Shown piece after piece: positions 1 through 44,751 of a stretch of 64,000 nt of DNA (positions are counted from its first letter, which is position 1; each line of letters opens with the position of its first letter). The position numbers and the translations under genes are program-made. Under the pieces are notes generated by a model. That model saw only the letters and a list, made by a program, of their open reading frames with translations, did no database searches and had not been told where the DNA came from. The DNA is from a virus (taxonomy: Duplodnaviria; Caudoviricetes). The stretch lies in the IMG/VR virus record IMGVR_UViG_3300023223_000769, positions 1,340-65,339 of that record. One strand, 5' to 3'.

Positions 1-245
1 GAGGTACACGGCGGCGGTGAATGCTCAGAGTGTGGGGTAGATATCCCGGCAGATGAGATCGACCTACCCTGTCCAGAATGTGAAGATATCCAGGTGAGAT
101 TGAATGAAATGAACAGGGAGTAAAATGAAAAAGCTAGGACGTATACCTCTGCCACCTAGGACAGGTGGACCACAGACCACGAAGAAAGGTAAAAAGGGGT
201 ACAATCGTAAACTCGAAAGGTCTAAAAAGTACAAAGGGGAATAGT

Positions 246-503
246 ATGAAAGAAAAAGAACTATTGGCACAGGCCAAAAAAGGGAATCGAGAGACAGAGT
301 TATTGAATGCAGCCAGGTTGATGTTCAAGGCATTGAATAAAGCAGTATGGGTGCCGGATGACGTAGCGGCCTTGATAGTGGCAGAGAGAGGCAAACCCTC
401 AGGGTTCGGATTGGCCTATGGGAAGCTGGCCGAGGCCTTAGAAGCCTTTGGGCCAGAGACACCAGAAGCTTTAGGTGTGGCGGTTTTCAGGACAATAAAG
501 TAA
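246..503 (+). CDS. hypothetical protein
   Basis: ORF; ATG at 246 after purine-rich AAGGGGA. Confidence 0.55.
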   Translation: MKEKELLAQAKKGNRETELLNAARLMFKALNKAVWVPDDVAALIVAERGKPSGFGLAYGKLAEALEAFGPETPEALGVAVFRTIK

Positions 504-585
504 CAAAGTTTGGTACGATGCCAGGAAATGGTTGCCCTATTGTGCAAAAGCACATAACGGGCCTTGGATTTAAAGGGTTTTTTCT

Positions 586-601
586 TGGCATGGACCTTGC
601 T
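586..601 (+). promoter_or_regulatory. sigma-54 (RpoN) -24/-12 promoter
   Basis: TGGCATGGACCTTGCT matches TGGCACG-N4-TTGCW with exact GG-N10-GC spacing; intergenic, upstream of a gene run. Confidence 0.75.
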
Positions 602-641
602 TCTATAGTACAGCATGAGCGACACAAAAAAGGAGCAAAAC

Positions 642-815
642 ATGAGCATATACAATCCTTGGGAAGATTTTGAGTATGCGATAGCCACAGAGAGAGTGAA
701 TCAGGAGCTTTATGACCGGGAACAGGATTCACTATGGGAGTCCAACAGGTGTCCAGATTGTGGCGTACACGGAGAGATTAAGGGACATATGACATGCCAG
801 TATCCAGAGGACTAA
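642..815 (+). CDS. hypothetical Zn-ribbon protein
   Basis: AAGGAG RBS; CPDC...C. Confidence 0.6.
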   Translation: MSIYNPWEDFEYAIATERVNQELYDREQDSLWESNRCPDCGVHGEIKGHMTCQYPED

Positions 816-832
816 AAAAGGAGCAAAGGAAC

Positions 833-1012
833 ATGAGCGAATATATCGATCCAGAATTTAACGATGCGGTTAACGATGCAGCAAAAACGGCCAGCAAAGC
901 ACGAAAGGCTAAGGTCCGTAGGGCCATGAGAAAAGAGATCGATGCGGCCATGAGGGACATAGGCCTTACAAAGGTGCGGGGGGCCGTAAGTGGAAAGGTA
1001 TATTGGGAGTAG
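833..1012 (+). CDS. hypothetical protein
   Basis: AAGGAG/AAGGA RBS nearly identical to that of the previous gene. Confidence 0.6.
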   Translation: MSEYIDPEFNDAVNDAAKTASKARKAKVRRAMRKEIDAAMRDIGLTKVRGAVSGKVYWE

Positions 1013-1193
1013 GGGCCATGGAAAACATACAAGAAATAACGGGCATAGTACCTCTAACCAGGAGGGCAAAAAACAGGGTACGGGAACACGGTAACGTGTT
1101 TTGGGTACGCAAGGAAACGGCTACGGAAATCTTGGTGGTTTCCCTGGATCGAGAATGGTTCGGTTGGTTTACAAAAGGAAAGGACATAGAATA

Positions 1194-1529
1194 ATGGCTA
1201 TCATAATCGCTAGGTTTAACGGACATTGCAGGGCCGAGTGTGGCAAGAAAATTGCCAAGGGTGACAAGATTGTACACCGGGGGCCTTTCAAGTCATGGCA
1301 TGTAGATTGTTACGATAAGACCGGGGCGGTTACCGGGGTGTACGGTGTTGATCCTGGGAATGCGGCAGAGATCGCCTTAGCAAGGCGGGAGACTTCCAGG
1401 GACAACCGGGAGTATCAGCAGGGGGTACGGGACTACGAAAATTGGAAGTTTAATCAATCGATTTATGGCGAAGAGGCAGCAGAGGCCATGGAAATAGAAC
1501 GAGAGTTGAAGGAAGGTTGGGATTATTAG
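1194..1529 (+). CDS. hypothetical Zn-binding protein
   Basis: RFNGHC..ECGKKI..GD...HVDC; N-terminus resembles 1970..2206. Confidence 0.6.
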   Translation: MAIIIARFNGHCRAECGKKIAKGDKIVHRGPFKSWHVDCYDKTGAVTGVYGVDPGNAAEIALARRETSRDNREYQQGVRDYENWKFNQSIYGEEAAEAMEIERELKEGWDY

Positions 1530-1969
1530 TATGTGGGAACGTCATACAGGGATAGTGGATTTTGAATGTCCACAGTGTAAGCAGATTACTACGGGGGAGG
1601 CCTTGGAAACCTTACCGGATAACAGTACAAAGGGAACATCGTTTAATAAACTTTTCCTTTGTGGACATAAGGCGAATTTAATTACGGATAGCGTTATAAG
1701 ACATTGGAGGTCGATTTAAAATGTTAAAGGTTCACATATATCACGGTAACGGAAAGTCAGCTACCATTAAGGCAAGCGAAATGATAGGCCTTACGATCCT
1801 CAGACAGGATAGCGTATCAGATAAGGATGAGGCAAGGAGTGTTAGGCCTAAGGGTCAACAGCTAGTCATGTTGGAAGTTACTGAGGCCGATGGAGAGTTG
1901 TTTATTTCGAATCTGAGAACAGACGAAAAAATTAAACTCTAAATTTTTTTTGGATCGGAGAACAGGACA

Positions 1970-2206
1970 ATGATTAACAGGTATGCAGGAATTTGTCAGG
2001 TATGCGGCACGAATGTTAAGCCCAATGCCGGTACTACCCAAAGGCCTAGGGGGGCCAAAAGGTGGTATGTGTATTGCTCTACACATTCCGCAGACCATTC
2101 ACAGATGGTCCATACTTTTTATTTTCCTAGCACTGGACACACTGCGTATCGCAATGCTAGGGGCAGGTGCGAAGATGCCCCATGTTGCGGGTGCTGCACA
2201 ATTTAA
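1970..2206 (+). CDS. hypothetical Cys-rich protein
   Basis: NRYAGICQVCG; C-terminal GRCEDAPCCGCC. Confidence 0.65.
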   Translation: MINRYAGICQVCGTNVKPNAGTTQRPRGAKRWYVYCSTHSADHSQMVHTFYFPSTGHTAYRNARGRCEDAPCCGCCTI

Positions 2207-2467
2207 TTGAAAGGATCGAAAATGGAAAACAGAGATTGGTACGTTAGGTCAAAATTTGCTAGTGTGTCAAATTACAATGGGGCCGAGGGGCCAAAGTTGA
2301 AAACCCAAGGGTGCGGGTGTTGCAGTAGGGAAGTGATTTTGACTGAGGAAAATTTGACTGAGGCAATTGTAGACACAGAAAATTTTGCCTCTGAGTTGAA
2401 GGCAATAAAGGCATCTATCGATTGGGCAGATGTTGAAAAACAGGCAAAGGAATATAACGAGTAAATT

Positions 2468-3001
2468 ATGGAAATGTCAGAGATACGCAGGACAGTCATA
2501 GACAAGGTTAACGAAACTTTGACCACGTTGGATTGCAGCAGGTTTCCGTTTACCATCGTCTATAAGAGACTAGGGGGCCGTTATGGATTCTATTCTCCTA
2601 AGACGAATACCTTAGTATTCGATCCGTTGTACATTCGTCAGAATTTTGAGAGGTACCTGGAAATCGTTGTGCCTCACGAGACTTGTCATTTGGTCCAGAC
2701 ACTAAAGTATGGGGATATCGATAAGGCGCACGGTTTCGTATGGCAGGGTTTAATGCGTCAGGTTGGTTTAAGGCCGGATAGGGTTATTGGAGGTTTCGAA
2801 ACGATACCTATGCGAAAAGTTAAAACGGTACCTTATACGTGTGGGTGTAGGGAGTGGCCTTTTACAAAAAAGCGTATTAATAATGATCTACGGTTTCAAC
2901 AGAAGCTGGCAGAGAAAAATAAAATGGTCAGACCACGTTATAGTTGTCCGTTATGTAAGCGGAGAATTAGACCGGTGGGGGAGGAGATAAATGCAAATTA
3001 A
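2468..3001 (+). CDS. SprT-like zinc metalloprotease
   Basis: HETCH (HExxH), HGFVWQ, then YTCGC and CPLC zinc ligands. Confidence 0.85.
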   Translation: MEMSEIRRTVIDKVNETLTTLDCSRFPFTIVYKRLGGRYGFYSPKTNTLVFDPLYIRQNFERYLEIVVPHETCHLVQTLKYGDIDKAHGFVWQGLMRQVGLRPDRVIGGFETIPMRKVKTVPYTCGCREWPFTKKRINNDLRFQQKLAEKNKMVRPRYSCPLCKRRIRPVGEEINAN

Positions 3002-3263
3002 TTTAGGTATCAAAATAAAGCAGATTGACATAGGTGAAGTTTTGAATGCATTTTACAGATACGTCTATGTCTTAGGTTTCAGTGGTAACCTTAAGAGTAG
3101 GGAATGGTATACAGGCTATGCGTGTGCCTTGAGGGATGCGGAGATTATAAGTCACGCTACCTGGGATGAGTTAACCAACAGGATTAACGATGATCGGCTT
3201 TTTAAGGCCATGGACCGTTACAATAGAGCTATAACGTCAGTGGTTGATTAAGGAGAAAGTATA

Positions 3264-3500
3264 ATGGTTAATTTAGAAGATATTGGTGATGTAGTTACAA
3301 TAATAAATGCAGATCGAAAGATCGATGCCATCAAGAGGGCCAGAGAACTTTTTAACCTGCCTCTGATTACGGCAAAGTGTTTTGTCGAGACATTGCAAAT
3401 TATCAACGGCAGTGCGCTTTGTCCACATTGCCATGTGATAATCGATCCTAACGAAATGCGGATACCCGCTACCATTAGTATTCGGAGGGGCAGGGGTTAG
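3264..3500 (+). CDS. ribosomal protein bL12 (L7/L12) C-terminal-domain-like protein
   Basis: KIDAIKRARELFNLPLITAKCFVE resembles bL12 KI.VIK.VR..TGLGL.EAK.LVE; followed by CPHC. Confidence 0.65.
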   Translation: MVNLEDIGDVVTIINADRKIDAIKRARELFNLPLITAKCFVETLQIINGSALCPHCHVIIDPNEMRIPATISIRRGRG

Positions 3501-5187
3501 ATAATGTTTGATTTAGAATACGATACAAAATTTGGTTTGCATAGTGACATTCCCATCTGTTGTATAGTGGCCTATACTACGGATAACATGCCCCCTCCCG
3601 CAGGTAGGGTATGGAATTATCGTCCCTGTTGGGAATGTTTTTTAAGAGGAAAATGGGTTAGTATCCATCTTTGTACTAGGGGATGTAAAAGTTTTTTGAA
3701 GTCTATAGGGTTAACAAGTGATCGTTATTTAAAGGGTCTAAAAACAAAAAAGGAGATGAGAAAATGGAAAACACAGAGAACAAAAAGCCAGAGAGAAATG
3801 AGAAGAAACAAGTAATGGGCAAGCATCAATCGAATTATGCTCGTAAGACTATTTACCTCAAGGGTCTTAGTCGGCGCACTGGTTATAGGGTATTCGGTTT
3901 CGAGGTTCCTTTCCCTAAGCCTTGGACGGTGAAATAATGGGTACAAGAAAACCGGCAGAGCCAAGGATGAGCAGTGGCCGTGTAGGTCGTTATAATGAGT
4001 ACGTTGAGTGGCGAGTAGGTAAACATCAAATCGTATGGGTTGCCCAAAGGGGTGCCGAGGGATTTTGGTTTATCTATGAAGTGCATCCTGGGGGCATGGG
4101 TATGGTAAAAACACTTGCGTCTTTTGCTCCGTTGCAAAAGACACAGGCGGTAGAGTTCGCACGTCAACAGGCAGAGAATATGTTTTGGGGGTAATCATGG
4201 ATAAGATCCAGAAGCTTTACAAAAAGACATTGGCCTTGGTGCCAGAGGTCCGAGAGGAAATTTGCGATCATTCCTGCGGTGGACATTATACAGGGTCGAT
4301 GCCTTGCACCGGCAGGATAGCGTGTTTCATGTGTGGAGTTACGTTAGATGAAAAGGGCATGGTCCAGGACGTAAAAAAGAAATGGATGCAACTGATCTAA
4401 TGGAACATTATACGTTAGATAAAAAACAGCGTGATTTTTTACATGACCTCCTGGAAAAGAATATACAACGTCCATTAGGTATAGCACGAAATCTATGGCT
4501 AATGGATTTGGTGATGTTGTTTGACAGTACGAATGACAAAATAATTATCGTAAAGGGAGATAAGAATGAAAACATCAATGGTTGATTTTCTTCCTGGGGA
4601 TGGCAAGACATACGTGGTCGAGGTTGCCTATATTCATCAGAATGCGGTAGACGTTAATAGTCTCTGTGCTTTTTGTCATGGTGATCCGTGTGCGGAAGAG
4701 TATCCAGAAAATCCATTATCATCTATGATCGGGTACTACCGGGATAGCTGCAAGGATCAAGGTTACACATTCGAAACGTGTCCTATGTGTAGCGGGAGGC
4801 CTTCATGAATAGATGGCATGAGATATCGAAGGAAACGTATCGGGCGATTTATACAGAGTTGTTAGATGAACTACATGTCTTTGGTACTATCACTAATCTT
4901 GGTGCGCCAGTTATGCCGGATCTACCAAAGATGATACTAACTGAGTGGGGTTTTAAAGACGAAGATTTTCCGTTGATTAAAAGTGAGATCACAGAAGAGG
5001 GTAAAAAGTTTTACATCATAAAGGCAGGGAGTTTTGTATGATCGAGTTTACAATCGTGTGTATAACTTTGACCGTGGTTTACTTGGTATCAGCATTGCCA
5101 GAGTTTTTTCTTGGTTATTACGGAATAAGTTTTGGGATTTCTGCATACCTTTATACGTATATAGTTTTTGATTGAGGGGAAAGAAAA

Positions 5188-5655
5188 ATGTTTACGCAAA
5201 AACAATTGAGACTAATTCATTTCTGTGCAGTGGAAGTAGACCGTCAGGAAGATGCGCCTAGAAGGGTATCTGACATGCTCCATGCGTGGAATGAGGTAGC
5301 TAAGGATATACGGCAGGGCCGTAGTCATAGAGCAATCTGTGGAATGTTAACTACTCAGTATGTTCAGTACATTGCACTAAAGACACAACCGGATAAGGGC
5401 GTGTATCGTGCAGGGCCGGTAGTTATTCACCATCGAGCAGTTGGGCCTAGCCATACGGAGATTCCGAGGCTCATGGGAACTTTGTTCGCCATGCCGACAT
5501 TGAATGCTCTTACACCTTTGCAGGTGTATATCGAGTTCGAAAAGATTCATCCGTTTTCAGACGGTAATGGTCGAGTGGGTTTGATTATTTTTAATGCTTT
5601 GAACGGATCTATTGAGACTCCGTTAAGGCCAAACGTTGGAAACGTTTTTGCATAG
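5188..5655 (+). CDS. Fic/Doc family protein
   Basis: HPFSDGNGRVG Fic motif. Confidence 0.85.
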   Translation: MFTQKQLRLIHFCAVEVDRQEDAPRRVSDMLHAWNEVAKDIRQGRSHRAICGMLTTQYVQYIALKTQPDKGVYRAGPVVIHHRAVGPSHTEIPRLMGTLFAMPTLNALTPLQVYIEFEKIHPFSDGNGRVGLIIFNALNGSIETPLRPNVGNVFA

Positions 5656-5953
5656 GAGAAAAATATGGAAAATAAAATATACAGAGTATTTGTGACACGG
5701 CATTTTATAGCTGTTAAATGGTATGATGTTGTGGCGACAAGTCCAAAGAAAGCAGGAAGGTTGGGAGAGAAAGCAGCTAAAGAATATTCCAAGGGGGCCG
5801 ATGTTCGATCAGAGGCTACGGACAATCACTGGCATTCGGATGAACCTATGGAGATAGGGTGTCTTGGCTATGGTGGTGAGAATGGCGAGTACACAGAGGA
5901 ATTGAAAGAGGTTATAAACGTTCCTGGGGCATGGGAATCGAAAGGGGTTTAAG

Positions 5954-6517
5954 ATGGAAGCAATAGAAACGAAAAAAGTTAGAGGGTATACAATCGAGAT
6001 CCACCAGGATGAAGATGCCGAGTCTCCGAGAGAGTGTAGTACGTTTGGTACAATGTTTTGTACTCATAGACGGTACAATCTTGGTGATAAACAGATAGGG
6101 TCAATGGCTAAAGGAGAATTTGACAAACTCATTAATCGTAAAGACGTAAAGTATCTGCCTCTGTACCTGTACGATCATTCGGGCCTTACCATGAGTACGA
6201 GTCCGTTTAGTTGTCCATGGGATTCGGGCCAGGTCGGGGTCATCCTTGCTACGCACGAAGATATTCGTAAAGAGTTCGGGCCACAGGGTAGGGCCATGAC
6301 GCATATATCTAAAAAGGCCATTTCAAGTGCCTTCAAATTGATGCGTCAGGAAGTGGAAGTGTACGATGCATTTCTCCGAGGTAACGTGTATGGATACGTG
6401 ATCCTGGATAAGAAAGGTGAGACTATGGATTCATGTTGGGGTTTTATTTGTGTCGATGGCAAGTTGGATTACGTCTATGAGGCGGCAATGGAAAATATAC
6501 CAAAGGGGAAAGTATGA
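5954..6517 (+). CDS. conserved phage hypothetical protein
   Basis: 187 aa ORF; LPLYLYDHSG...PWDSGQVG...DSCWGF. Confidence 0.7.
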   Translation: MEAIETKKVRGYTIEIHQDEDAESPRECSTFGTMFCTHRRYNLGDKQIGSMAKGEFDKLINRKDVKYLPLYLYDHSGLTMSTSPFSCPWDSGQVGVILATHEDIRKEFGPQGRAMTHISKKAISSAFKLMRQEVEVYDAFLRGNVYGYVILDKKGETMDSCWGFICVDGKLDYVYEAAMENIPKGKV

Positions 6518-7484
6518 CTGATCGAGATAAAAAAATCAGGGCCATGTTGAAAGACGAGAATCATGTTGTCCTGGAAGTAGACGGTCAAAAAGATCGATAT
6601 GGTAAAACTCCATTTACAGCCTTTTGGTTGACCAGTTATATTCCAGGATTACCGTTTGATGATACCGAATTGAAAATGAGGGCGCAGTGCTTTAGAACTT
6701 TATTTGACGTGTCCGTTCGTACTTGGCAAAAGCGTGGTAAGATCGTTCACGTTATCGATTTGATGGATAAATTATAGGAGTAAATGATGGACGTAACCAC
6801 GCAGGTAAATAGAATGTGTTGGGAGTGTAATAAAGAACACGAGAGAATTGCGTTTTGTACAAACTGTAAAGCTTGCCTATACCTACATTCCAAACAGGAT
6901 ATAGTGGCGGCTGACATGGGTTACCCTATGTTCTTTTGTACGAAGTGTGGTCAAAATAATTTTTGGGATTAGGAGTAAATTATGAATGCGAGACAATTAC
7001 ATCTAGTTATTCAAGAGCGCAAAAAGTTACAGGCGCAGCTAGGGAACACACATACCGGTTTCAGGGTTAGGTGTGTGACTGCGGTTGCCCGAAACATACT
7101 GTTAGAGGGTGTCTATTTTTGGAATGGGAGACATTGTAACCCTAGAGCAAAGAGCATAGGGGCAGGTGTCTACGAGGTTTGGTTAGAGAAGGAAGGGGTC
7201 TAATTATGCTTACAGGTGACTTACCGAGAAGCTTTTTTGATGAGCCGGGGAATGCAGTAGCGAGAGTTAACTTAAAAAAGTTACAAGCTATCATGATGCA
7301 TTATGGCGAGACTTTAACGGTCAAAAATATTAGGTATCACATTCTCCATAAGCAGTTATGTCCAGGAGTTTTTGAGATAACGTTAACCACTAGGGTTTCC
7401 AGAGTTTGACATCAAATGACAAATTATGGGTGCCAAAATGCGGTACTTGCATCGAGGCACCTAATAAACTCAAGGCTTTTTTCT

Positions 7485-7500
7485 TGGCATGGACCTTGCG
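7485..7500 (+). promoter_or_regulatory. sigma-54 -24/-12 promoter
   Basis: TGGCATGGACCTTGCG; shares TTTTTCTTGGCATGGACCTTGC with the site at 579-600. Confidence 0.75.
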
Positions 7501-7511
7501 TTAGTAAAAGG

Positions 7512-8010
7512 CAAGCTCGTCATCGAGTATGTCATGTGATAATAAGACATTGCATGGCTAAGGGGCGAGTGATTGACAGCTATGCTGTCGCCTACGGTCT
7601 AGGATAGAGCCTTTAAAAGGGGTATCCTGCTCGTTGAGATAGGAGTCCAGAATTGGAATCCGTGGATGCTTGGCCTCTCTAACACCAGGCCCTAGGCGAG
7701 AGCATAGTTGAGAATCCAGACTGCACTTTAAAATGGGTTGCGGATCATGCACTAGGAGCTATAGAGCCTGTCGTATCCAGAGAGGGACCGACCCTCAGAC
7801 AGGAGATCACTCTAGTAGCGAAACGGCATAAAGACTGTAACCATTCAGGCTAGTGACGGACCCACCACGAGTTTTCTCGTGGCACTGGACTAGATAACGG
7901 CTGAAAATCACCTCTGTATCAGGGGCCGAGTCAGTTAGGTTGGTTGGAGGTTCTAGATTCAGTGGGGTGCAGTGTGGATTTTTACGGGGGAGATGGTCTG
8001 ATACGGGGCC
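7512..8010 (+). ncRNA. large structured noncoding RNA, family unknown
   Basis: no credible ORF; long helices 7577-7594/7693-7710 and 7713-7726/7967-7980 plus many nested hairpins; starts just downstream of a sigma-54 site. Confidence 0.7.
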
Positions 8011-8020
8011 AGAATATGAA

Positions 8021-8171
8021 TGAGGAAAGCAATGAGTAGTACTCTCCTTGGGAGAAGAAAGTTGTTAGTATTCTCCGATTATACAAGTCGGATAAGGAAG
8101 AAAAATCGTTCTGGCGATAAAGTACTTTTCATACCCGGATTATTCAGGTTCGATTCCTGATTCCCTCATCA
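8021..8171 (+). ncRNA. tRNA-like RNA with T-arm and expanded body
   Basis: T-arm TCAGG-TTCGATT-CCTGA (8144-8160); imperfect acceptor-like pairing TGAGGAAA/TTCCCTCA; internal stem TGAGTAGTACT/AGTACTTTTCA enclosing three hairpins. Confidence 0.55.
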
Positions 8172-8339
8172 GTTTTATTTTATAGGAAGGAGTAGCTATG
8201 GAGAATTTAGAAATTTTGATTAAGCAAATTCGAAAAGAAGTAGCGTTAGATATTGCTCAAGATTTTTTGGCACAACTGAGTGAGAATGAACTTGCGGAAT
8301 TGGCATTACAATATAATCAGATGATCGGAGATAATTAAT

Positions 8340-8486
8340 ATGTGGGTTTATCAGAGAACAGAAGCTAATTTGTACAGTGTTGGTTTTTATAAACCAAATG
8401 GTAAGTGGGTACCGGAAAGCGATTACAACGATAGAGAACAGGCTGCAAGGCGAGTTCATTTTTTGAATGGTGGAGGAAGGGTGTAA
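8340..8486 (+). CDS. small phage hypothetical protein (below the ORF-track cutoff)
   Basis: translates as MWVYQRTEANLYSVGFYKPNGKWVPESDY...RVHFLNGG. Confidence 0.6.
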   Translation: MWVYQRTEANLYSVGFYKPNGKWVPESDYNDREQAARRVHFLNGGGRV

Positions 8487-10499
8487 AGATGGAAATATTT
8501 GTACCGGCTACGGACGCAGACAGACAGTATCTTTTGTGGTGTGCGCTTGAACTTGCAAAAGCAATTGTTCGCAAACAGCAGGGAGAAAAAAATGGAAATG
8601 TTAATGTGTAGATGCGGTAGAATTTTGGTCGGCATGTGGGAGAGGCTTAGAGGGGTTTGTTATATCTGTAAGCCTACAGGCCGATGGACAAACGAACCGG
8701 GGCCATAGGAGGGTCTATGTATAAAGTAGAAGTGATAGCGGATAATTCAGGCACCTATGCCGGGAACGCATTGACGTTCGATCACGTAGCAGAGGCAGAA
8801 GAGTATGGGATCGATCTTATGTCCAGGTGGATGTTGGTTAGAACGTGGCGAGTGGTCGAGATCGAAACCGGCAAGGTCATGAGGCAGTACTAATGCTTCA
8901 CATAAGGGTTTATGGTGAAAATCCTAGATGGTGGTTTGGCTTCTTAAATAAGGGGGCGTTTCGTCAGACCACAGAGCATGACGGTATCATTTTATACGGT
9001 GAGGAAGGTAAAGATTTTCGAGTAGCAGTAGCAAAGTAAGGAGCATTTATGATCGATGATTTTCTTGTTATGGGTTTCTTTGTGTCCGTGGGATACCTTC
9101 TCTGCATGGGTGTCAATTGGATAAGGAGAAAGTTCAATGGCTAAGTTGTGTCGGATAACGGTCTTAGCTTATCAATTTGAAGGCGTTGGACCAAGAGATG
9201 GTTACAAGCGTCAAGATTTAGAGAATGGCATCGAGTTCTGCGAAGATTTAATTGACCAAGGTTTCAAGGAAGAGCCGATGGATCATTTCAGTTTGCGTGG
9301 ATATATCAAGTGGGCAAACATGGAGATCATGAGGAGATTCTAATGCGTACTAGGCACCAAAGACTTTTTATGTATGCACGGTCTGCGCTTGTTATGTGCA
9401 AGTGTGGAACTAAGTTTGAGCTACAAGAGGGAGCTATTGAGGAAGTCACTTGTGCCTCCTGCGGTGAGGAGTTTCGTCTTAGGGACTACAGGGGTCCGTA
9501 TGGGCCGGAGAACGATTGCGAATAAATTGCGGTTTTGTTGCGTCTATCGGTGGGTCGGGGAAATGGAAATGACAACCGACCCTCTTTACAGCCTAGTGGC
9601 CGTGGACGCAACAATGGTTGGTGAATGCAGAAAGGATCTAGATGCTGTCCTTTTTGCTAGTCGGTTTGAGGGTGTGACAGTGGAACGAGAGGGTAAGGAC
9701 GCTTATCGTATCCGATGTATCCCCTGGACACACCCCTGCCGTGGTTATGTCCGGTTTAATGGCCGGTTGTGTCGAGTTGCCCACAGGAGGGCAGATCGAC
9801 CTAGCGGCAATGGTAGGGGGCCGGTTCCGTGGCCGGTTGCTTAAAATCGATTTATAGCGAAGTTAGGGGGGTTTATGCAAAGAGACTATACAGAGTTTGC
9901 TGTCGAGAGTGCTAACAGGGCCATAAAGTGGATTCGCAGGTATGAGGAAGAGATAAACCGTGAATTTGGCAGGGATTATAGTAAGGTTCTGTTGGATAGC
10001 AGGATCAGGAAGCTTAGACTTGCTCAGAAAAATCTGACTTATCTTAATAGGGGCTTAGATTAAAAAGGAGGAAATTATGAGCATTGCAGAGGGACAGCAG
10101 GTGCTAAATATGCTATTTTATGTGGCTATTACGGGTCCGGTGATATCCCTTACCTGGGCCGTGTATCTGTTATTGAATCGGTAACCGGGGGGAGGGTGCA
10201 TGAAAGGTCTAACAAAGAAACAAAAACAGATAAAGATTAATGACATACAGGTTGATATCGAAGATGAAATAGAGTTTGTCGATATAAAGCCATATAGTCA
10301 TAACTTAATTTCAATGAGACTAAGGCACATTTCCGATCTTGGAGGGGTTAAAGAGGCCAATAGGGTCATTAGGGAGCTAGGCCTTGAGAGTTTAGGTTGG
10401 CGTAAAGTATCAAAAAATGATACCAAGTGACAATTTTTGGAGCCGTATTTTGGCATTCGCTATTTGCGAATCGAGAATCGCTCATAGCGAATAGCCTAT

Positions 10500-10538: not shown

Positions 10539-10554
10539 TGGCACGGTACTTGCT
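10539..10554 (+). promoter_or_regulatory. sigma-54 -24/-12 promoter
   Basis: TGGCACGGTACTTGCT is a full consensus match, intergenic. Confidence 0.8.
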
Positions 10555-13026: not shown

Positions 13027-13959
13027 ATGTCTAAGATAGGTGGTTACTCAAAAGTCTATGCTATAGGGCATCATGCAATCCAGGGCCTCCTGGAAGAGCC
13101 GGTGTTAGTCGAGGAAAAGATTGATGGTTCGCAATTCTCTTTTGCAGATTTGGATGGGGAATTGGTTTGCCGGTCACATACTAAGGATATCATCATAGAC
13201 GCACCGGAGAAAATGTTTAACAAGGCAGTTGCGGTTTGCCAAGAGCTATATGCTACACACCAATTGCATCCAGGTTGGGTTTATCGGGCTGAGTATTTGC
13301 AGAAGCCAAAGCATAACACGCTTACTTATGATCGAATCCCGGAAAAGGGTTTGGTGATTTATGATATCGATACAGGCTTGGAATGTTATTTGGATTGGCC
13401 CCAAAAAAATGTCGAGGCTAAACGATTGGGCCTTGAAGTGGTACCAATACTCTTCCATGGTCGCATTACATCTATGGATTTCATACGGAGTATGTTGGAC
13501 ACGGTTTCTTTTCTAGGTGGGACAAAAATCGAAGGCGTGGTTGCTAAACGATACGGTTATTTTACTGTCGATGGCAAGACTGCCATGGGTAAGTATGTAT
13601 CCGAGTTGTTTAAAGAGAAACACGTTAAGGAATGGAAGAAAGGTACAACCAAAGACGTTGTACAGAATTTGATCCTGGAATTGAAGAGTGAGGCTAGATG
13701 GCAAAAGTCAGTACAGCATTTAAAAGAGGCAGGTCAGCTAGACGGTTCTCTGAAAGATATCGGGCCACTAATCAGGGCTGTCCCGGAAGATATTTTGGAG
13801 GAAGAGAAGCAACATATTATGGAAGAGTTGTTCAATCATTTCTGGCCTCAGATTCGCAGGGCGGTTACCGGGGGGCTTCCTGAGTGGTACAAGGAAGAGT
13901 TAGCTAAGAAAGAATTTGAGGAAGATCAAGAATATCAATTACGTTCTCGTCAGGAGTAA
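13027..13959 (+). CDS. ATP-dependent RNA ligase, Rnl2-like
   Basis: motif I EEKIDGSQFS, motif III AEY, IIIa YDI, motif IV EGVVAK, motif V GKYVS. Confidence 0.8.
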   Translation: MSKIGGYSKVYAIGHHAIQGLLEEPVLVEEKIDGSQFSFADLDGELVCRSHTKDIIIDAPEKMFNKAVAVCQELYATHQLHPGWVYRAEYLQKPKHNTLTYDRIPEKGLVIYDIDTGLECYLDWPQKNVEAKRLGLEVVPILFHGRITSMDFIRSMLDTVSFLGGTKIEGVVAKRYGYFTVDGKTAMGKYVSELFKEKHVKEWKKGTTKDVVQNLILELKSEARWQKSVQHLKEAGQLDGSLKDIGPLIRAVPEDILEEEKQHIMEELFNHFWPQIRRAVTGGLPEWYKEELAKKEFEEDQEYQLRSRQE

Positions 13960-18013: not shown

Positions 18014-19182
18014 ATGAAAACGATTAAACGTTGGCTCAGACTCTATACGCCTCAGTGGGTGTTGGCTGTTGGGTTTTTATCGGGTGCTATACAGACTTGG
18101 GCAATAGAAACCCAAGGGTCCACTATCAAAACCCATTGGGGGCAGGTCGGTGGAGCTATTCAGGATACAGCCGAAACCATTAAGGAAGGTAAGAATGTAG
18201 GTAAGGCTAACGCAACAACTCCGGTGCAACAGGCCGAGGCCGAGGCCAAGTCTACATGGGAACTTAAGAAGAAAAAAGGTTATGTGGAAGATATGACTCA
18301 TGCCGTGGCCGGTAAAGTCGATGCGATAATCGAAGGCGGGATTTTCCCGATGCTGGCGCATACCATCGAGAAACGAGGCAAGGATCTTAAGTATCCCTGT
18401 TTTGTGCAGCCAAAATTAGATGGGCATCGTTGTATTGCTATCTGTAAGAACGGGAAGGTTACTTTGTGGAGCCGGTCAAGGAAACCGATTACTGGTGTGC
18501 CTCATATCATAAAGGCACTTGAGAGCATAGGTGGATTTGTTGGTGAGAATTTTATTTTGGATGGTGAATTGTACAACCATGACTATCGTTTCAACTTTGA
18601 AGAGTTGACGCATTTTATTCGGCAGCAAAAACCAATTGCCGGTCATGAAGTTGTGCAATACCATATTTATGATCTTCCTATACACGAAGATTATGAGGAG
18701 AGATTAAAAATATTGAAAAATTTCTTTTTTAATGTTCCTCCTCACAGAGAGACACCATTGAGGTTTGTGGAGACAAATGATGTCGTAAATGAAAAGGAAA
18801 TGATGTGTAACTATGATAATTTTATAGAGAAGGGATACGAGGGAGCTATACTCAGAAATGCTAAAGGCCTCTATAAGAATAAACGATCCTCTGACTTACT
18901 CAAGGTAAAGCAATTTCAGGATGAAGAGTTTGAAGTGATAGAGGTCGTAGAGGGTAAAGGTAAATTAGTTGGACACGGTATTTTTATTTGCCGTTGCATA
19001 TCGCCAGAAAGTCCAGAGGGTAAGTTTAAGACCAAGATGTCGGTGACCTAGGTAACTTAAAACAGTATTGGGATAATCCAAAGCTGGCAATTGGCAGGTA
19101 TCTAACGGTACAGTTTCAAGGGTATTCCGTTTATGGCATACCGAGATTCCCGGTGGGTCTGAGATTTAGAAAGGATATATAA
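18014..19182 (+). pseudogene. ATP-dependent DNA ligase (WGR-like N-terminus), frameshifted near 19040
   Basis: QPKLDGHR, LDGELY, YDL, EGAILR, LLKVK; ORF stops at 19051 but the -1 frame from 19042 continues ...LTVQFQGYSVYGIPRFPVGLRFRKDI* (motif VI). Confidence 0.85.
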
Positions 19183-25106: not shown

Positions 25107-25496
25107 TGGAGGAATTATGACTGATAAAGAAGTAGGAGAAGCATTCAAAGAAACGCAAATCTTTGGTACTGATTATAACGATAACGGGGCCAAAATGCGT
25201 AGCTATAATTTAAAGATACGAATGCGTGAGGTAATTTCTAAGCTTGTAACTGAACGTGCAGATTCTCAATACTATGAACCTGGCGGTACTGGTCGAGAAG
25301 GCATACAGTATGCTCTAATAGATTTTGGTATTAAAGAGGAAGATTGGGATGGCTATAATAAAAATTGAATCTAGTGATGGAACTTTTGTTTGGGAAAAAG
25401 AATTTACGGGCGAAGATATTTATTATATGCAAAAAGAAAGTTATGGACTTCTTGATGCACTAAATAAAGCTGCTGATATAGATGAAAGGAATCAAA

Positions 25497-26666
25497 ATGA
25501 GTCAGATGATTGACAATAAAATAATTGCGTTTTTGGACCCTGAGACAATTGAGGAAGCAGCAAAGCAGCAATTGTTTAATATCGCACGTCTACCTTTTAT
25601 CTTTAGGCATGTGGCCGTGATGCCAGATTGCCATTTAGGGAAAGGTGCGACTGTTGGATCTGTCATTGCAACCAAAGGGGCTGTCGTACCGGCTGCTGTG
25701 GGTGTGGATATCGGTTGTGGCATGATTGCAGTAAAGACAGCAGCTAGTGCAAATCATTTGCCAGATAATTTAAAAGACTTGCGGGATGGTATTGAGAAAA
25801 GGGTGCCTAGTGGTTTTGCTGTTAATCAACATATGACAGTTTCAGCTAGGGACAGAGCAACCATGTTGAATCTGAAGAGTATGAGGGATTATGATGAGGT
25901 CGATCCTAAGTGGCCTAAGGCTATTGGGTCATTAGGTGGTGGAAATCATTTCATCGAAATTTGTTTAGATGAAGATGATTACGTGTGGATCGTGTTGCAT
26001 TCAGGTTCTCGTGGTATCGGAAATAAGATTGCTCGTTTTCATATGGATGCTGCAAAGGACTGTATGAAAAAATGGCATATCGAATTGGCAGACCGGGACT
26101 TGGCTTACTTACCGGAGAAGACACCAGAGTATATAGCCTACATGAGAGATTTAAAGTGGGCGCAAGATTTTGCGTTGGCGAACCGGGAAGAAATGATGGA
26201 TCGTGTATTGGTTGAGTTTTTTAAATCTGTCCCTGAAATAATACGGGGGATAGAGATGGAGCGAATCAATTGTCATCACAATTTTACGCAGATGGAAAAC
26301 CATTATGGTCAGAATGTTTTAGTTACTCGTAAAGGTGCTATCCAAATGCGGAGGGGTCAGAGGGGCGTAATACCGGGATCGATGGGAACCAAATCTTACA
26401 TCGTGTCGGGTTTGGAAAACAGAGAGGCGTTTCATTCGGCACCCCATGGGGCCGGTAGACGCTTTTCTAGGACAGAAGCTAGAAGGCGTTTTACCATGGA
26501 TGATTACAAAGAGGCCATGAAGGGCATTGAGTGTCGGGAGTCGAAAGCTTTGTTAGATGAGATACCGGCTGCATACAAGGATATCGATGTTGTCATGGAA
26601 AACAGTAACGAGTTGGTCGAAGTGAAGCACGTACTGAAACAGGTCTTGAATGTGAAGGGTGATTAA
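25497..26666 (+). CDS. rtcB: RNA-splicing/repair ligase RtcB
   Basis: MPDCH, GVDIGCG, GGGNHFIE, HSGSRG, HHN, RKGA, PGSMG, HGAGR, DE.P.AYK. Confidence 0.95.
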   Translation: MSQMIDNKIIAFLDPETIEEAAKQQLFNIARLPFIFRHVAVMPDCHLGKGATVGSVIATKGAVVPAAVGVDIGCGMIAVKTAASANHLPDNLKDLRDGIEKRVPSGFAVNQHMTVSARDRATMLNLKSMRDYDEVDPKWPKAIGSLGGGNHFIEICLDEDDYVWIVLHSGSRGIGNKIARFHMDAAKDCMKKWHIELADRDLAYLPEKTPEYIAYMRDLKWAQDFALANREEMMDRVLVEFFKSVPEIIRGIEMERINCHHNFTQMENHYGQNVLVTRKGAIQMRRGQRGVIPGSMGTKSYIVSGLENREAFHSAPHGAGRRFSRTEARRRFTMDDYKEAMKGIECRESKALLDEIPAAYKDIDVVMENSNELVEVKHVLKQVLNVKGD

Positions 26667-41310: not shown

Positions 41311-41388
41311 CTGAGAGTAGCTCAGTCAGGCCAGAGTCCCCGCCTTGGAAGCGGGTTGTCCCAGGTTCAAATCCTGGCTCTCAGACCA
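41311..41388 (+). tRNA. tRNA-Pro(TGG)
   Basis: CTGAGAG/CTCTCAG+ACCA; CCCGC-CTTGGAA-GCGGG. Confidence 0.9.
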
Positions 41389-41391
41389 GTA

Positions 41392-41565
41392 CGAGGAGTG
41401 ATTATGATGCAAAGGATGGAACATAATGAATCCCCCTATGATCCCCCGCAGATGGCTATGGATAACCGTAGCGATAGCGGTAGGGTCCGACATAATCATT
41501 TTTCTGATGGGGTATTTCATTCGATGGTTCACCGAACGATAGGAACCACAGGTACAACCTCGCCC
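41392..41565 (+). ncRNA. structured, possibly pseudoknotted RNA between tRNA-Pro and tRNA-Gly
   Basis: GTGATTATG/CATAATCAT, GCTATGG/CCGTAGC, crossing ATGAATCCCC/GGGGTATTTCAT, closing CGAGG/CCTCG. Confidence 0.5.
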
Positions 41566-41589
41566 AATAAGGGGTAAATGTAAATGTAC

Positions 41590-41663
41590 GCTACTATCGT
41601 TCAACGGCAGGACCTTTGGCTTCCACCCAAATGATGAGAGTTCGAATCCCTCTAGTAGCTCCA
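41590..41663 (+). tRNA. tRNA-Gly(TCC)
   Basis: GCTACTA/TAGTAGC+TCCA; TTTGG-CTTCCAC-CCAAA. Confidence 0.9.
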
Positions 41664-41668
41664 AAGCT

Positions 41669-41742
41669 GCTAGAGTAGTATAATGGCATTATGCCTGTTT
41701 TGTAATCAGGAGATGGGGGTTCGATTCCTCTCTCTAGCTCCA
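41669..41742 (+). tRNA. tRNA-Thr(TGT)
   Basis: GCTAGAG/CTCTAGC+TCCA; loop TTTGTAA. Confidence 0.85.
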
Positions 41743-41750
41743 AAATTTTT

Positions 41751-42146
41751 ATGTTTGATAGAAAAACATACATGCGGGAATACATGCGGAAATACAGCCT
41801 CATTTATTACCACGAGAAGAGAAAAGAAGCACGTATCAAACTAGGTGGAGAGTGTGTTGAATGCGGATCAAAAGATAAATTGGAGTTTGATCATATTGAT
41901 CCAGAAACAAAGTCGTTCGATATTAATACTAATGTAAGCGTAGAACGTTTTTGGAAAGAAGTAGCAAAGTGTCAATTGTTATGTAAGGGGTGTCATTTTA
42001 AGAAGACACTTAAAGAACGAGGTTTCACTTCGACTAGAGGGAAACATGGAACGCCAACCACTTATAAGAAATGTAAGTGCGAGGAATGCAGGGCAGCAAA
42101 AAGTTTAGAAATGAAGCGGTATATGGAAACGTATATTCGTCCATAG
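41751..42146 (+). CDS. HNH endonuclease (probable homing type) inside the tRNA array
   Basis: CVECG..LEFDHIDP..K...CQLLCKGCH. Confidence 0.85.
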   Translation: MFDRKTYMREYMRKYSLIYYHEKRKEARIKLGGECVECGSKDKLEFDHIDPETKSFDINTNVSVERFWKEVAKCQLLCKGCHFKKTLKERGFTSTRGKHGTPTTYKKCKCEECRAAKSLEMKRYMETYIRP

Positions 42147-42218
42147 GCTAGTAGCTTAATGGCAAAGCGTTCCCCTTATAAGGGATTGTCCATGGTTCGA
42201 TTCCATGCTGGCCTACCA
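42145..42218 (+). tRNA. tRNA-Ile(TAT)
   Basis: AGGCTAG/CTGGCCT+ACCA; TCCC-CTTATAA-GGGA. Confidence 0.85.
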
Positions 42219-42225
42219 AAAATAT

Positions 42226-42299
42226 GGGTCTGTAGTTCAATGGGAGAACGGTTGCCCTACAAGCAACATACCAGGGTTCGATTCCTTGTGGACCCACCA
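42226..42299 (+). tRNA. tRNA-Val(TAC)
   Basis: GGGTCTG/TGGACCC+ACCA; GTTGC-CCTACAA-GCAAC. Confidence 0.88.
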
Positions 42300-42533
42300 G
42301 TTGCAAAATATGTGAAGTGTTACTGATTTAGTAACGGGGGGAATTATGGATACAGTAAATAATTTTAGATATATCAAAGGAGAACGTGATATTGGGCCAT
42401 TAAATAATCACGAAATAAAAGAGTTGAACAGAGATTTTAATATTCAGATTGAAGGTTATTATGTTGTTGCAGCTTTAACAAAGAAAGAATGGGAACATTT
42501 AAAAGTAATTAGAGAGATAAAATTATTAGATTA

Positions 42534-42609
42534 GGGTCGGCATGTTCCAAGCGGGCGACTGACACTTGCAATGTCGGTGTGGTGAGTTGGATTCTCACCC
42601 GATCCACCA
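42534..42609 (+). tRNA. tRNA-Ala(TGC), atypical D and T loops
   Basis: GGGTCGG/CCGATCC+ACCA with G3:U70; TGACA-CTTGCAA-TGTCG; T-loop TTGGATT. Confidence 0.8.
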
Positions 42610-42614
42610 GTTAT

Positions 42615-42723
42615 GGGCAGGTAGTTTAATGGAAAACTCCGGGCCTGAGTAAGAAGTTTGTTGAGGGGTCTTCATGCTTTTGAAATGGACCGGCATCCCC
42701 GGCCTCAACTCCGGGTCTGCCCA
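42615..42723 (+). ncRNA. tRNA-like RNA (acceptor and D-arm, noncanonical remainder)
   Basis: GGGCAGG/TCTGCCC; TA-GTTT-AATGGA-AAAC D-arm; TTGAGG/CCTCAA domain; no anticodon arm or T-loop. Confidence 0.5.
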
Positions 42724-42732
42724 TATTAATTT

Positions 42733-42820
42733 GGAGGGATGGCTGAGAGGCTTAAGGCTCACGTTTGCTAAACGTGCGTACCCTAATAAGGTGCCGAAGG
42801 TTCGAATCCTTCTCTCTCCG
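42733..42820 (+). tRNA. tRNA-Ser(GCT)
   Basis: CACGT-TTGCTAA-ACGTG; long variable arm; G73; no encoded CCA. Confidence 0.9.
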
Positions 42821-42825
42821 CATTT

Positions 42826-42921
42826 GGAAGAGTGGCTGAGTGGGTGAAAGCGATAGTCCTGAAAACTATTGGGCGCAGTAAGCTCTGTGTTCCGTGGGTT
42901 CGAATCCCACCTCTTCCTCCA
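42826..42921 (+). tRNA. tRNA-Ser(TGA)
   Basis: GGAAGAG/CTCTTCC+TCCA; ATAGT-CCTGAAA-ACTAT; long variable arm. Confidence 0.88.
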
Positions 42922-44215: not shown

Positions 44216-44290
44216 GTGTCGGTGATGTAACGGTAGCCTATTCGGTTGTGGCCCGAAATGAGTGTGGTTCAACTCCACCCCGACACCCCA
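44216..44290 (+). tRNA. tRNA-His(GTG)
   Basis: GTGTCGG/CCGACAC+CCCA; TTCGG-TTGTGGC-CCGAA. Confidence 0.85.
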
Positions 44291-44293
44291 AAT

Positions 44294-44368: not shown

Positions 44369-44371
44369 TAT

Positions 44372-44445: not shown

Positions 44446-44446
44446 T

Positions 44447-44673: not shown

Positions 44674-44674
44674 C

Positions 44675-44749: not shown

Positions 44750-44751
44750 AC

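What the first reader, a model, noticed from the sequence alone, without database searches (positions are those of the whole stretch)
7512..8010. ~500 nt multidomain structured RNA downstream of a sigma-54 promoter
This is the largest gene-free stretch of a densely coding region. Pairings read by eye: 7515-21/7564-70, 7531-40/7549-58, 7577-94/7693-7710 (18 positions, 1 mismatch), 7713-26/7967-80 (enclosing ~240 nt), 7767-72/7798-7803, 7865-71/7876-82. Segment 7912-22 can pair with 7998-8008 across the long helix (pseudoknot) or fold locally, which could make a switch. G-U pairs favour function as RNA. Size and tRNA-adjacent phage context recall large RNAs such as GOLLD and ROOL, but I cannot assign a family.
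Basis: partly seen in the sequence, partly recalled or inferred. Interest (0 to 1): 0.85.

Follow-up and report, generated by a model that had tools for sequence, protein, structure and literature searches.

The report
Candidate large structured phage RNA
An uncultured marine phage carries a gene-free stretch that most likely encodes a roughly 475-base folded RNA ending at a tRNA-shaped element, of the same kind as the large orphan phage RNAs GOLLD and ROOL, but proof from base-pair covariation or transcripts is still missing.

Summary
The stretch is truly non-coding, with stops of all three kinds in every frame. None of 7 internal ORFs is in the protein collection. GC is 0.51 against 0.41 for the window.

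Fold z-scores are -3.8 (whole), -5.0 (domain A, 7577-7710) and -4.2 (domain B, 7711-7982).

No Rfam family matches. A sigma-54-type -24/-12 element sits at 7485-7499. A degenerate tRNA-like element (7986-8168) starts 3 nt after domain B.

The best new evidence comes from contigs of four other metagenome runs:
- Domain B is kept at about 98% identity where the neighbouring gene is 79% identical.
- It appears with different flanks.
- The borders of conservation fall at the ends of the predicted closing helices.

Weak points:
- No homologue DNA could be fetched, so covariation is untested.
- No RNA run was listed.
- Single helices and short sliding windows are not unusual.
- The proposed pseudoknot/switch is at chance level.

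Verdict: probably a real new family within a known kind (large phage RNAs beside tRNAs); function unknown. The scan has noted this kind before on other DNA.

The parts
7417..7429 (+). Upstream box TGACAAATTATGG, a possible activator (enhancer) site of the promoter cassette
   Evidence: The pattern TRACAAWKTWTGG occurs 3 times in the window, each 68-111 nt upstream of a sigma-54-type element. The pattern was derived from these three sites, so the count is circular. Contig matches of runs X1 and X3 begin exactly at 7417 (table 8).
7485..7499 (+). Sigma-54-type -24/-12 promoter element TGGCATGGACCTTGC
   Evidence: The pattern TGGCACGNNNNTTGC with at most 1 mismatch gives 4 matches, all on the + strand, against 0.53 expected; 0 of 100 shuffles reach 4. 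The 15-mer at 586 is identical. No transcript data exist.
7512..7575 (+). 5' hairpin H0 (7515-21/7564-70 and 7531-40/7549-58), rich in G-U pairs
   Evidence: Present in the minimum-energy fold with pair probabilities 0.97 and 0.79; 6 G-U among 19 pairs. In X3 the matched stretch begins at 7580 and unlike letters lie before it (table 7).
7577..7710 (+). Domain A: a 29-pair interrupted rod (7577-7609/7677-7710) closing a small branched tip
   Evidence: z -5.02, 0 of 200 shuffles. 0 of 505 control windows of 140 nt over 1-7070 reached it; their minimum was -4.16. X3 homology starts at 7580; X6 covers it at about 92%.
7711..7982 (+). Domain B: the core module. A closing helix of 17 pairs (7711-28/7965-82) around a multi-arm junction. 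Arms: 7736-7842, 7865-82 and 7883-7964, plus a weak arm 7848-62
   Evidence: z -4.20, 0 of 200 shuffles; helix probabilities 0.88-1.00 for most arms. X3 piece 7641-7980: 6 other letters in 340. X5 piece 7710-7984: 5 in 275, with unlike DNA on both sides.
7986..8168 (+). tRNA-like element: acceptor-like stem 7986-92/8161-67, hairpin at the D-arm position, an insert of about 100 nt, canonical T-arm 8144-8160, discriminator A8168
   Evidence: ARAGORN finds it only at an 80% threshold with introns allowed, as 'tRNA-Leu(gag)' with a 102-nt insert; at default settings it finds nothing. Rfam tRNA scores 14.6 bits against a gathering score of 29. The T-arm matches those of the phage's real tRNAs.
8157..8181 (+). 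Weak hairpin (CUGAU/AUCAG) plus a U-run; a possible terminator that overlaps the 3' end of the tRNA-like element
   Evidence: Read from the sequence. The terminator scan did not call it.

Best explanation
This is a real non-coding RNA gene of an uncultured marine phage, read on the + strand.

An 85-nt promoter cassette (upstream box at 7417 to the sigma-54-type -24/-12 element at 7485-7499) would start transcription near 7511. The transcript folds into a 5' hairpin, a rod-like domain A, and a 272-nt multi-arm domain B. Domain B is the conserved core.

Three bases after domain B's closing helix a degenerate tRNA-like element begins. I infer that host RNase P cuts at its 5' side (7985/7986). That would release a stable RNA of about 475 nt that acts in trans as a folded particle. 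This is the same kind of thing as the tRNA-linked phage RNAs GOLLD and ROOL.

Its role is unknown. My best guess is a scaffold or decoy within this phage's tRNA and RNA-repair programme (26 tRNAs, RtcB, an Rnl2-type ligase).

Shown: it is non-coding, it is folded, it is strand-biased, and it is conserved as modules.
Inferred: promoter use, RNase P processing, action in trans, and the role.
For: NON-CODING
- Stops of all three kinds occur in all frames.
- 0 of 7 internal ORFs are in the 15-billion-protein collection, while 3 of 3 flanking genes are.
- Indels in relatives are not multiples of three: +2, +1 and -1 in X3; -5 and +7 in X6 (table 4).

FOLDED
- z -3.84, -5.02 and -4.20, with 0 of 100, 0 of 200 and 0 of 200 shuffles as good.
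- 0 of 505 control windows reach domain A's z.
- GC is 0.51 against 0.413 for the window.

STRAND
- 22 of 163 pairs are G-U, and 0 of 4 single mismatches are A-C.
- The same structure on the - strand is 31 kcal/mol weaker.

CONSERVATION
- Identity in run X3, by segment:
  - domain B: 98.2% (6/340)
  - downstream gene: 92.3% (13/169)
  - promoter: 90.5% (7/74)
  - start of domain A: 90.5% (4/42)
  - upstream gene: 79% (39/186)
- In X5 only 7710-7984 matches (5/275), with unlike DNA on both sides.
- Homology borders (7580, 7710, 7980/7984) coincide with helix ends.
- In X3 the hairpin 7865-82 keeps a 6-pair stem despite three indels and a substitution.
- 7858 G>A and 7923 G>A each turn a predicted G-U into an A-U.
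- After domain B, the loose ends of X3 and X5 again start with a GGGAG-type acceptor-like strand.

PROMOTER.
tRNA-LIKE ELEMENT.
NO KNOWN FAMILY.
Against: - No covariation test was possible, because no homologue DNA could be fetched.
- No transcript evidence exists.
- Only a handful of variant positions inside the RNA were visible: 66 of 106 differences were not shown.
- One of the visible variants (7928 G>A) breaks a predicted pair, though a low-probability one.
- The runs were chosen by words shared with 7400-8200, which biases the comparison with the outer flanks. X1 may be the source sample.
- Contigs are short and of low depth (2-8x).
- In X1 the downstream gene is as conserved as the RNA (0/243), so part of the pattern may be recombination mosaic rather than selection.
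- Short-window folding and single inverted repeats are unremarkable.
- Several coding windows reach z about -4.
- The record holds no sigma-54 activator. It is 63% complete.
- The tRNA-like element fails both tRNA detectors at standard thresholds, and its region folds no better than shuffles.
Confidence: 0.55

Rival explanations
1. It is a cis-acting leader or processing cassette. The folded region would be a long 5' leader that controls or stabilises the downstream small genes (8198 onward), or is merely the precursor leader of the tRNA-like gene, with no function in trans.
For: - The unit lies between a promoter and the next gene, with no strong terminator between them.
- A weak hairpin plus U-run ends 16 nt before the start codon at 8198.
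- X3 keeps the order domain B, acceptor-like strand, gene 8198-8338.
- Two other sigma-54-type promoters of the window head ordinary gene strings.
Against: - Domain B is more conserved than the gene it would control: 98.2% against 92.3% in X3.
- In X5, domain B occurs with a different 5' flank.
- The part nearest the gene (7984-8200) is the least structured and the least conserved.
- A leader of about 690 nt before a 46-aa gene would be unusual.
Confidence: 0.15
2. It has no RNA function. The stretch would be mosaic phage DNA: decayed genes, or small DNA elements bounded by inverted repeats (MITE-like), that recombine between phages. The fold signal would come from terminal inverted repeats and raised GC.
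For: - Domains A and B are each bounded by inverted repeats: 15 nt at 93% and 14 nt at 93%.
- Homology borders in X3 and X5 fall at these repeats.
- Domain B has different flanks in different contigs.
- Such repeats are common in this window.
- Some coding windows fold nearly as well.
Against: - There is a single copy in the record, and no flanking direct repeat is visible.
- The departures from perfect complementarity are one-sided: 22 G-U and 0 A-C on the + strand.
- Structure extends through the interior of both domains, not only their ends.
- The X3 hairpin keeps its stem through indels.
- About 98% identity, where the neighbouring gene is 79% identical, is hard to explain without constraint or very recent transfer.
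Confidence: 0.15
3. It is a diverged member of a described class that the Rfam models miss: GOLLD or ROOL, a tmRNA-like RNA using the tRNA-like end, or an ORF-less group I intron.
For: - Phage origin, closeness to tRNAs, and a conserved 3' part with a more variable 5' part are as described for GOLLD (PMC12286853, passages read).
- ARAGORN at a 70% threshold prints 'permuted tmRNA' calls that end at 8168.
- Domain B is mobile between contexts, as introns are.
Against: - No match to any of these families, even at E up to 10 on short stretches with lax filters.
- ARAGORN at default settings finds no tmRNA or tRNA.
- The low-threshold tmRNA tag (AENHLCIRGRVS) lacks the usual hydrophobic end (recalled knowledge), and the acceptor-like stem has G2-U71, not G3-U70.
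- No split gene or exon pair flanks domain B.
- At about 475 nt it is well under GOLLD's 800 nt.
Confidence: 0.07

Closest known systems
GOLLD RNA (Rfam RF01998)
   Same: It is encoded by phages and prophages, often near tRNA islands. [quoted passage not shown] Here the 3' domain B is the conserved core, the 5' parts vary, and a tRNA-like element follows at once.
   Different: No covariance-model match, even at E up to 10. About 475 nt rather than over 800. No sequence likeness was found. Oligomer formation is untested.
ROOL RNA (Rfam RF03087)
   Same: A phage or prophage RNA of comparable size (about 580 nt, recalled), often near tRNA islands and of unknown function (PMC12286853).
   Different: No covariance-model match. 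The pseudoknots typical of ROOL are not shown here: the one proposed is at chance level.
RNAs whose 3' end is made by RNase P at a downstream tRNA-like element (MALAT1-mascRNA in mammals; tRNA-linked precursors in bacteria). Recalled knowledge.
   Same: A folded RNA is followed within 3 nt by an acceptor/T-arm mimic, and the arrangement recurs in the X3 and X5 contexts.
   Different: Cleavage is not shown. The element carries an insert of about 100 nt and fails standard tRNA detection.
Sigma-54-driven rsr-yrlBA-rtcBA operon of Salmonella (Y RNAs with a tRNA-like domain beside RtcB). Recalled knowledge.
   Same: A sigma-54-type promoter, a non-coding RNA with a tRNA-like module, and RtcB in the same genome.
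   Different: There is no Ro/TROVE gene in the record and no Y RNA match in Rfam. RtcB lies 17 kb away. The RNA ends sit at the acceptor side, unlike YrlA.

Membership tests
GOLLD (RF01998) | Match to the family covariance model at or above the gathering score | tested here: not met
   No match at the gathering score in the window, nor at E up to 10 on 7300-8300, 7700-7990 or 7505-7715.
GOLLD (RF01998) | Phage or prophage gene near tRNA genes; conserved 3' region and variable 5' region | tested here: met
   The window is a virus record with 26 tRNAs. A tRNA-like element abuts the RNA. Domain B is about 98% conserved in X3 and X5, while the 5' parts are less conserved or replaced.
GOLLD / ROOL | RNA-only multimeric nanocage | not testable with these tools
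   Needs native gels or cryo-EM.
ROOL (RF03087) | Match to the family covariance model | tested here: not met
   no match.
tRNA (RF00005), for 7986-8168 | Cloverleaf recognised by the tRNA model or by ARAGORN at standard thresholds | tested here: not met
   14.6 bits against a gathering score of 29, using a different 5' strand. ARAGORN at default settings finds 0 genes in 7000-8600. It finds the element only at an 80% threshold with a 102-nt insert.
tmRNA | tRNA-Ala-like end (G3-U70), tag reading frame, detection by ARAGORN or Rfam | tested here: not met
   ARAGORN at default settings finds none, and no Rfam tmRNA family appears at E up to 10. Only 70%-threshold 'permuted' calls with an atypical tag appear. 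The stem has G2-U71 (read).
Group I intron (RF00028) | Core recognised by the model; insertion in a host gene with two exons | tested here: not met
   No match. No interrupted ORF or tRNA flanks domain B.
Sigma-54-dependent promoter | -24 GG and -12 GC elements (TGGCAC-N5-TTGC) with exact spacing, in an intergenic position and co-oriented | tested here: met
   TGGCATGGACCTTGC at 7485, with 1 mismatch. 4 matches against 0.53 expected, all on the + strand; three are intergenic and the one at 1241 lies inside an ORF.
Sigma-54-dependent promoter | An activator ATPase (Sigma54_activat domain) and dependence on RpoN | tested here: inconclusive
   PF00158 is absent from the 65-kb record, but the record is 63% complete and the activator may be the host's. 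The host is unknown.
Ocean-VII RNA (RF03092) | Match to the family model at the gathering score of 53.5 bits | tested here: not met
   12.9 bits, covering model positions 15-41 only, at 7778-7800. The hairpin pattern has 1 match in IMG/VR, inside a coding gene.
MITE-like DNA element | Terminal inverted repeats, several copies per genome, target-site duplication | tested here: not met
   Inverted ends are present, but there is a single copy in the record and no flanking direct repeat is visible.

The most novel reading that the evidence does not exclude
Domain B plus its tRNA-like handle is an undescribed, horizontally exchanged RNA module of deep-sea phages. It would be switched on through a sigma-54/activator circuit, for example the host's RNA-damage sensor of the RtcR type. 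RNase P would then release it. It would act as a folded particle or decoy that protects or organises the phage's tRNA pool against host tRNA-cutting defences, possibly by self-assembly as GOLLD and ROOL do. The palindromic UUUAAA motif shared by domains A and B could make loop-loop contacts.
Probability: 0.1. Interest if true: 0.8.

Novelty: new member of a known kind. Interest (0 to 1): 0.5.

Why it matters
Large orphan RNAs of phages (GOLLD, ROOL) are among the most elaborate natural RNAs with no known job. Each new, unrelated family that shares their context (phage, tRNA genes, a tRNA-like piece) narrows what that job can be.

This candidate adds three testable features:
- a compact 272-nt core that moves between phage contexts;
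- a tRNA-like element placed 3 nt after the core, which suggests how the 3' end is made;
- a sigma-54-type promoter cassette, which would tie its expression to an activator-gated host signal.

If the alignment-based tests fail, it is merely a GC-rich mosaic spacer.

Tried and rejected
HOMOLOGUE HUNT (mostly empty)
- blastn of 7400-8200 against GenBank phages gave no match. Plasmids gave no match.
- The tandem motif pattern gave 0 matches in IMG/VR.
- The Ocean-VII-like hairpin pattern gave 1 match in IMG/VR, inside a dUTPase-like gene, so it is chance.
- Loci around relatives of the 187-aa neighbouring gene: 12 loci, with no nhmmer or blastn match. Their 12 whole records also gave 0 matches.
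- Flanking proteins P0002 and P0005 gave 0 relatives in IMG/VR and in the GTDB genomes.
- The polymerase alone gave 0 in IMG/VR. A polymerase alignment gave 12 loci at 22-44% identity.
  - The 8 records of the 8 closest loci gave 0 real matches. Two weak hits in G019 lie in coding DNA.
  - A gap and promoter survey of four of these records showed nothing alike.
- In GenBank phages the polymerase reaches under 25% identity.
- A protein search with the 85-codon open frame across the RNA found no candidates.
- Earlier notes, by sequence and by relatives, held nothing beyond this window.

EXPRESSION
- No RNA holder was listed among the 21 runs.
- Parts of the stretch lack contig cover in some runs. 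Neither point is evidence.

REJECTED READINGS
- Recoded protein gene: all three stop codons occur in every frame, and no suppressor is among the 26 tRNAs.
- tRNA intron in X5: I could not build an anticodon arm from the flanks by eye.
- tmRNA, group I intron, Y RNA/Ro (no TROVE gene) and RNase P RNA (no Rfam match).
- Pseudoknot switch.
- Paralogy with the GC-rich blocks before tRNA-Tyr and tRNA-Met: no similarity. These blocks fold at z -2.06 and +0.79.

LITERATURE
- 'Ocean-VII' is in 0 papers of the library. Its description may sit in supplements, which I did not open.
- The searches gave listings only.
- I read passages of PMC12286853.

Full report
WHERE IT LIES. The window is part of a 65,339-base IMG/VR virus record, estimated 63% complete, and the stretch occurs once in it. 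The phage is uncultured.
- All long ORFs are on the + strand.
- It carries 26 tRNA genes.
- It encodes RtcB (402 bits), an RNA-ligase-family protein and a DNA ligase, a UDG-exonuclease-PolA fusion polymerase, a portal protein and a Fic-domain protein.
- The polymerase has no relative above 25% identity among 50,697 GenBank phage records and none above 44% in IMG/VR. Relatives at 88, 74, 73 and 62% exist in Logan, NCBI/ENA and JGI assemblies.

THE OBSERVATION. Between the genes 7206-7409 and 8198-8338 nothing is open.
- In 7380-8230 the + frames hold 13, 23 and 15 stops, and every frame has TAA, TAG and TGA.
- No suppressor tRNA is present.
- Of 7 ORFs of 31-64 aa inside 7416-8157, none is in the 15-billion-protein collection, whereas all 3 flanking genes are.
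- It is the largest + strand ORF gap in the window.
- GC is 0.49-0.51 across 7500-7999, against 0.32-0.40 beside it and 0.413 overall.

IS THE FOLD MORE THAN CHANCE? Partly.

Evidence for:
- The + strand 7500-8020 folds at -188.9 kcal/mol against -163.6 +/- 6.6 for dinucleotide shuffles: z -3.84, 0 of 100 as good. The - strand gives z -2.47, 2 of 100.
- Split at the natural borders, domain A (7574-7712) gives z -5.02 and domain B (7708-7986) z -4.20, each 0 of 200.
- As a control for having chosen the borders, I scored 505 windows of 140 nt at 14-nt steps over 1-7070, mostly coding, with 25 shuffles each. They had mean z -0.48, sd 1.14 and minimum -4.16, so 0 of 505 reach domain A's value. Several coding windows do come near -4 (the run stopped at 7071 for lack of time).

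Evidence against:
- 150-nt windows inside 7550-8000 are ordinary, with z from +1.5 to -1.6.
- The window holds 68 inverted-repeat pairs of 13 nt or more within 400 nt, and the RNA's helices are not among the 25 longest.
- The tail 7984-8200 has z +0.56.
- The proposed pseudoknot 7912-22/7998-8008 is no better than chance: 130 of 300 shuffled tails give a run of 12 or more pairs.

STRAND. The fold has 22 G-U pairs among 163, and none of its 4 single mismatches is A-C. The mirrored structure on the - strand is 31 kcal/mol weaker. Part of this is built into a + strand energy minimisation. Still, together with the gene orientation and the promoter it points to the + strand.

KNOWN FAMILIES.
- Rfam 15 at gathering scores finds only 25 tRNAs, none in 7000-8600.
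- At E up to 10, with the lax filters used for short inputs, only scraps appear: a snoRNA-like match on the - strand, and a 12.9-bit partial match of the hairpin 7778-7800 to Ocean-VII (gathering score 53.5).
- A 14.6-bit tRNA match also appears at 8097-8168 (gathering score 29).
- No GOLLD, ROOL, HEARO, OLE, raiA, tmRNA, RNase P, 6S, Y RNA or intron model appears.

PROMOTER.
- TGGCATGGACCTTGC at 7485-7499 fits the sigma-54 -24/-12 consensus with one mismatch.
- The pattern has 4 matches in the window, all on the + strand, against 0.53 expected, and 0 of 100 shuffles reach 4.
- The sites at 586 and 7485 share 23 identical letters including an upstream T-run.
- Three sites are intergenic. The fourth, at 1241, lies in an ORF and may be chance.
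- Each intergenic site has a related 13-mer 68-111 nt upstream (this count is circular because the pattern was drawn from the sites).
- No Sigma54_activat domain is in the record.
- No sigma-70-like promoter lies before the RNA.

THE tRNA-LIKE ELEMENT.
- Three bases after domain B's closing helix, GGGGGAG (7986-7992) can pair with UUCCCUC (8161-8167). That strand directly follows a canonical T-arm (8144-8160, loop UUCGAUU) and is followed by A8168.
- ARAGORN reports nothing at default settings. At an 80% threshold with introns allowed it draws a 'tRNA-Leu(gag)' with a 102-nt insert over exactly 7986-8168.
- Its T-arm shares 11-16 nt matches (93.3-100% identical) with the phage's real tRNAs.
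- The 46-aa ORF across it is not in the protein collection, and X6 carries 7 inserted letters inside it.

RELATIVES IN OTHER SAMPLES, THE MAIN NEW EVIDENCE.
- 20 of 21 listed runs, from 11 studies, hold some of the 31-letter words of 7400-8200. None is on record as RNA.
- I laid the contigs of four of them. X1 is labelled hydrothermal vent and may be the source sample, X3 is unlabelled, X5 is marine, and X6 is cold seep.

Run X3:
- Upstream gene 7003-7188: 39 other letters in 186 (79% identity).
- The gene 7206-7409 is absent. A contig joins 7188 to 7417 with 39 other letters between.
- Promoter cassette 7417-7490: 7 in 74.
- 7580-7621: 4 in 42.
- 7641-7980: 6 in 340, plus 4 gap positions.
- Downstream gene 8170-8338: 13 in 169.
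- Unlike DNA lies before 7580 and after 7980.

Run X5:
- One contig matches only 7710-7984 (5 in 275), with unlike letters on both sides.

Run X6:
- 7575-7891 has 24 in 317, and 7867-8145 has 10 in 279.

Run X1:
- 7682-8113 has 1 in 432, but 8096-8338 has 0 in 243 and 7000-7319 has 20 in 320.

What follows from these contigs:
- Domain B is the best-kept part.
- Domains A and B, and the promoter cassette, behave as modules.
- The borders of likeness (7417, 7580, 7710, 7980/7984) fall at the box, the helix starts and the helix ends.

The few variants I could see fit the fold:
- 7858 G>A and 7923 G>A each turn a G-U into an A-U.
- The X3 indels in hairpin 7865-82 leave a 6-pair stem.
- 7928 G>A breaks one low-probability pair.
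- 7926 and 7927 are unpaired.
- The X3 and X5 loose ends after domain B again start with a GGGAG-type strand. The X3 loose end before 8170 ends with a matching C-rich strand, so the stem of the tRNA-like element seems kept while its interior diverged.

Caveats:
- 66 of 106 differences were not shown.
- Contigs are short and shallow.
- The runs were picked by likeness to 7400-8200.
- X1's pattern shows that recombination mosaic contributes.

WHAT I COULD NOT DO.
- So covariation, the test that would settle the matter, is untested.

READING.
- The evidence favours a real + strand structured RNA with domain B as its core, transcribed from a sigma-54-type cassette and followed by a tRNA-like handle.
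- I infer RNase P cleavage at 7985/7986 and action in trans. This rests on analogy with tRNA-linked RNAs and with GOLLD and ROOL.
- According to the passages I read in PMC12286853, GOLLD and ROOL are phage or prophage RNAs often near tRNA islands. In GOLLD the 3' region is universally conserved, the 5' region less so, and tRNAs are sometimes embedded.
- Membership in either family fails the model test, so this is a new family of that kind, not a member.
- Rivals: a cis leader (0.15), functionless mosaic or MITE-like DNA (0.15), and a diverged known class (0.07).

EARLIER NOTES OF THIS SCAN.
- Notes on this window gave the promoter trio, the upstream box and the tRNA mimic. I re-tested these.
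- Notes on other genomes describe several unassigned large phage RNAs with tRNA-like pieces. The kind has therefore been seen before in this scan, though not this sequence.

Noticed in passing
window 586-600, 7485-7499, 10539-10553 (also 1241-1255): Three intergenic, co-oriented sigma-54-type -24/-12 elements, each with a related 13-mer 68-111 nt upstream, in a phage record with no sigma-54 activator gene. A fourth match lies inside an ORF. In other metagenome contigs the 85-nt cassette 7417-7501 recurs with different downstream DNA.
   Followed up: partly
window 7611-7623 and 7726-7738: The motif CYTTTAAAAKGG occurs only twice in 64 kb, once in domain A and once in domain B. In each case it lies just after the 5' strand of the closing rod and is unpaired in the fold. 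It contains the palindrome TTTAAA. The tandem pattern has no match in IMG/VR.
   Followed up: partly
window 7778-7800: The hairpin CAGAGAGGG-loop-CCCUCAGAC matches the 3' two-thirds of the Rfam Ocean-VII consensus letter for letter, but scores only 12.9 bits against a gathering score of 53.5. The one IMG/VR match to the pattern lies in a coding gene.
   Followed up: yes
window 7189-7416: In run X3 the 67-aa gene 7206-7409 is absent. Two contigs join 7188 to 7417 with 39 other letters between, so this is an accessory-gene indel right before the promoter cassette.
   Followed up: no
window 13027-13959, 18014-19051, 25482-26666, 41311-46198: An RNA-ligase-family protein, an ATP-dependent DNA ligase, RtcB (402 bits) and 26 tRNA genes: an RNA-repair and tRNA-supply set. 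No Ro/TROVE gene is in the record.
   Followed up: partly
They fold at z -2.06 (8 of 200 shuffles as good) and z +0.79 (157 of 200), much weaker than the RNA studied here, and share no sequence with it.
   Followed up: partly
window 47554-50100: The DNA polymerase is a fusion of a uracil-DNA-glycosylase-family domain, a 3'-5' exonuclease and PolA. 15 metagenome relatives at 36-88% identity keep the fusion. GenBank phages reach under 25% identity.
   Followed up: partly
window 5188-5655: A small Fic/DOC-family protein (155 aa, E 1.6e-09) lies 2 kb upstream of the RNA, among genes of unknown function.
   Followed up: no
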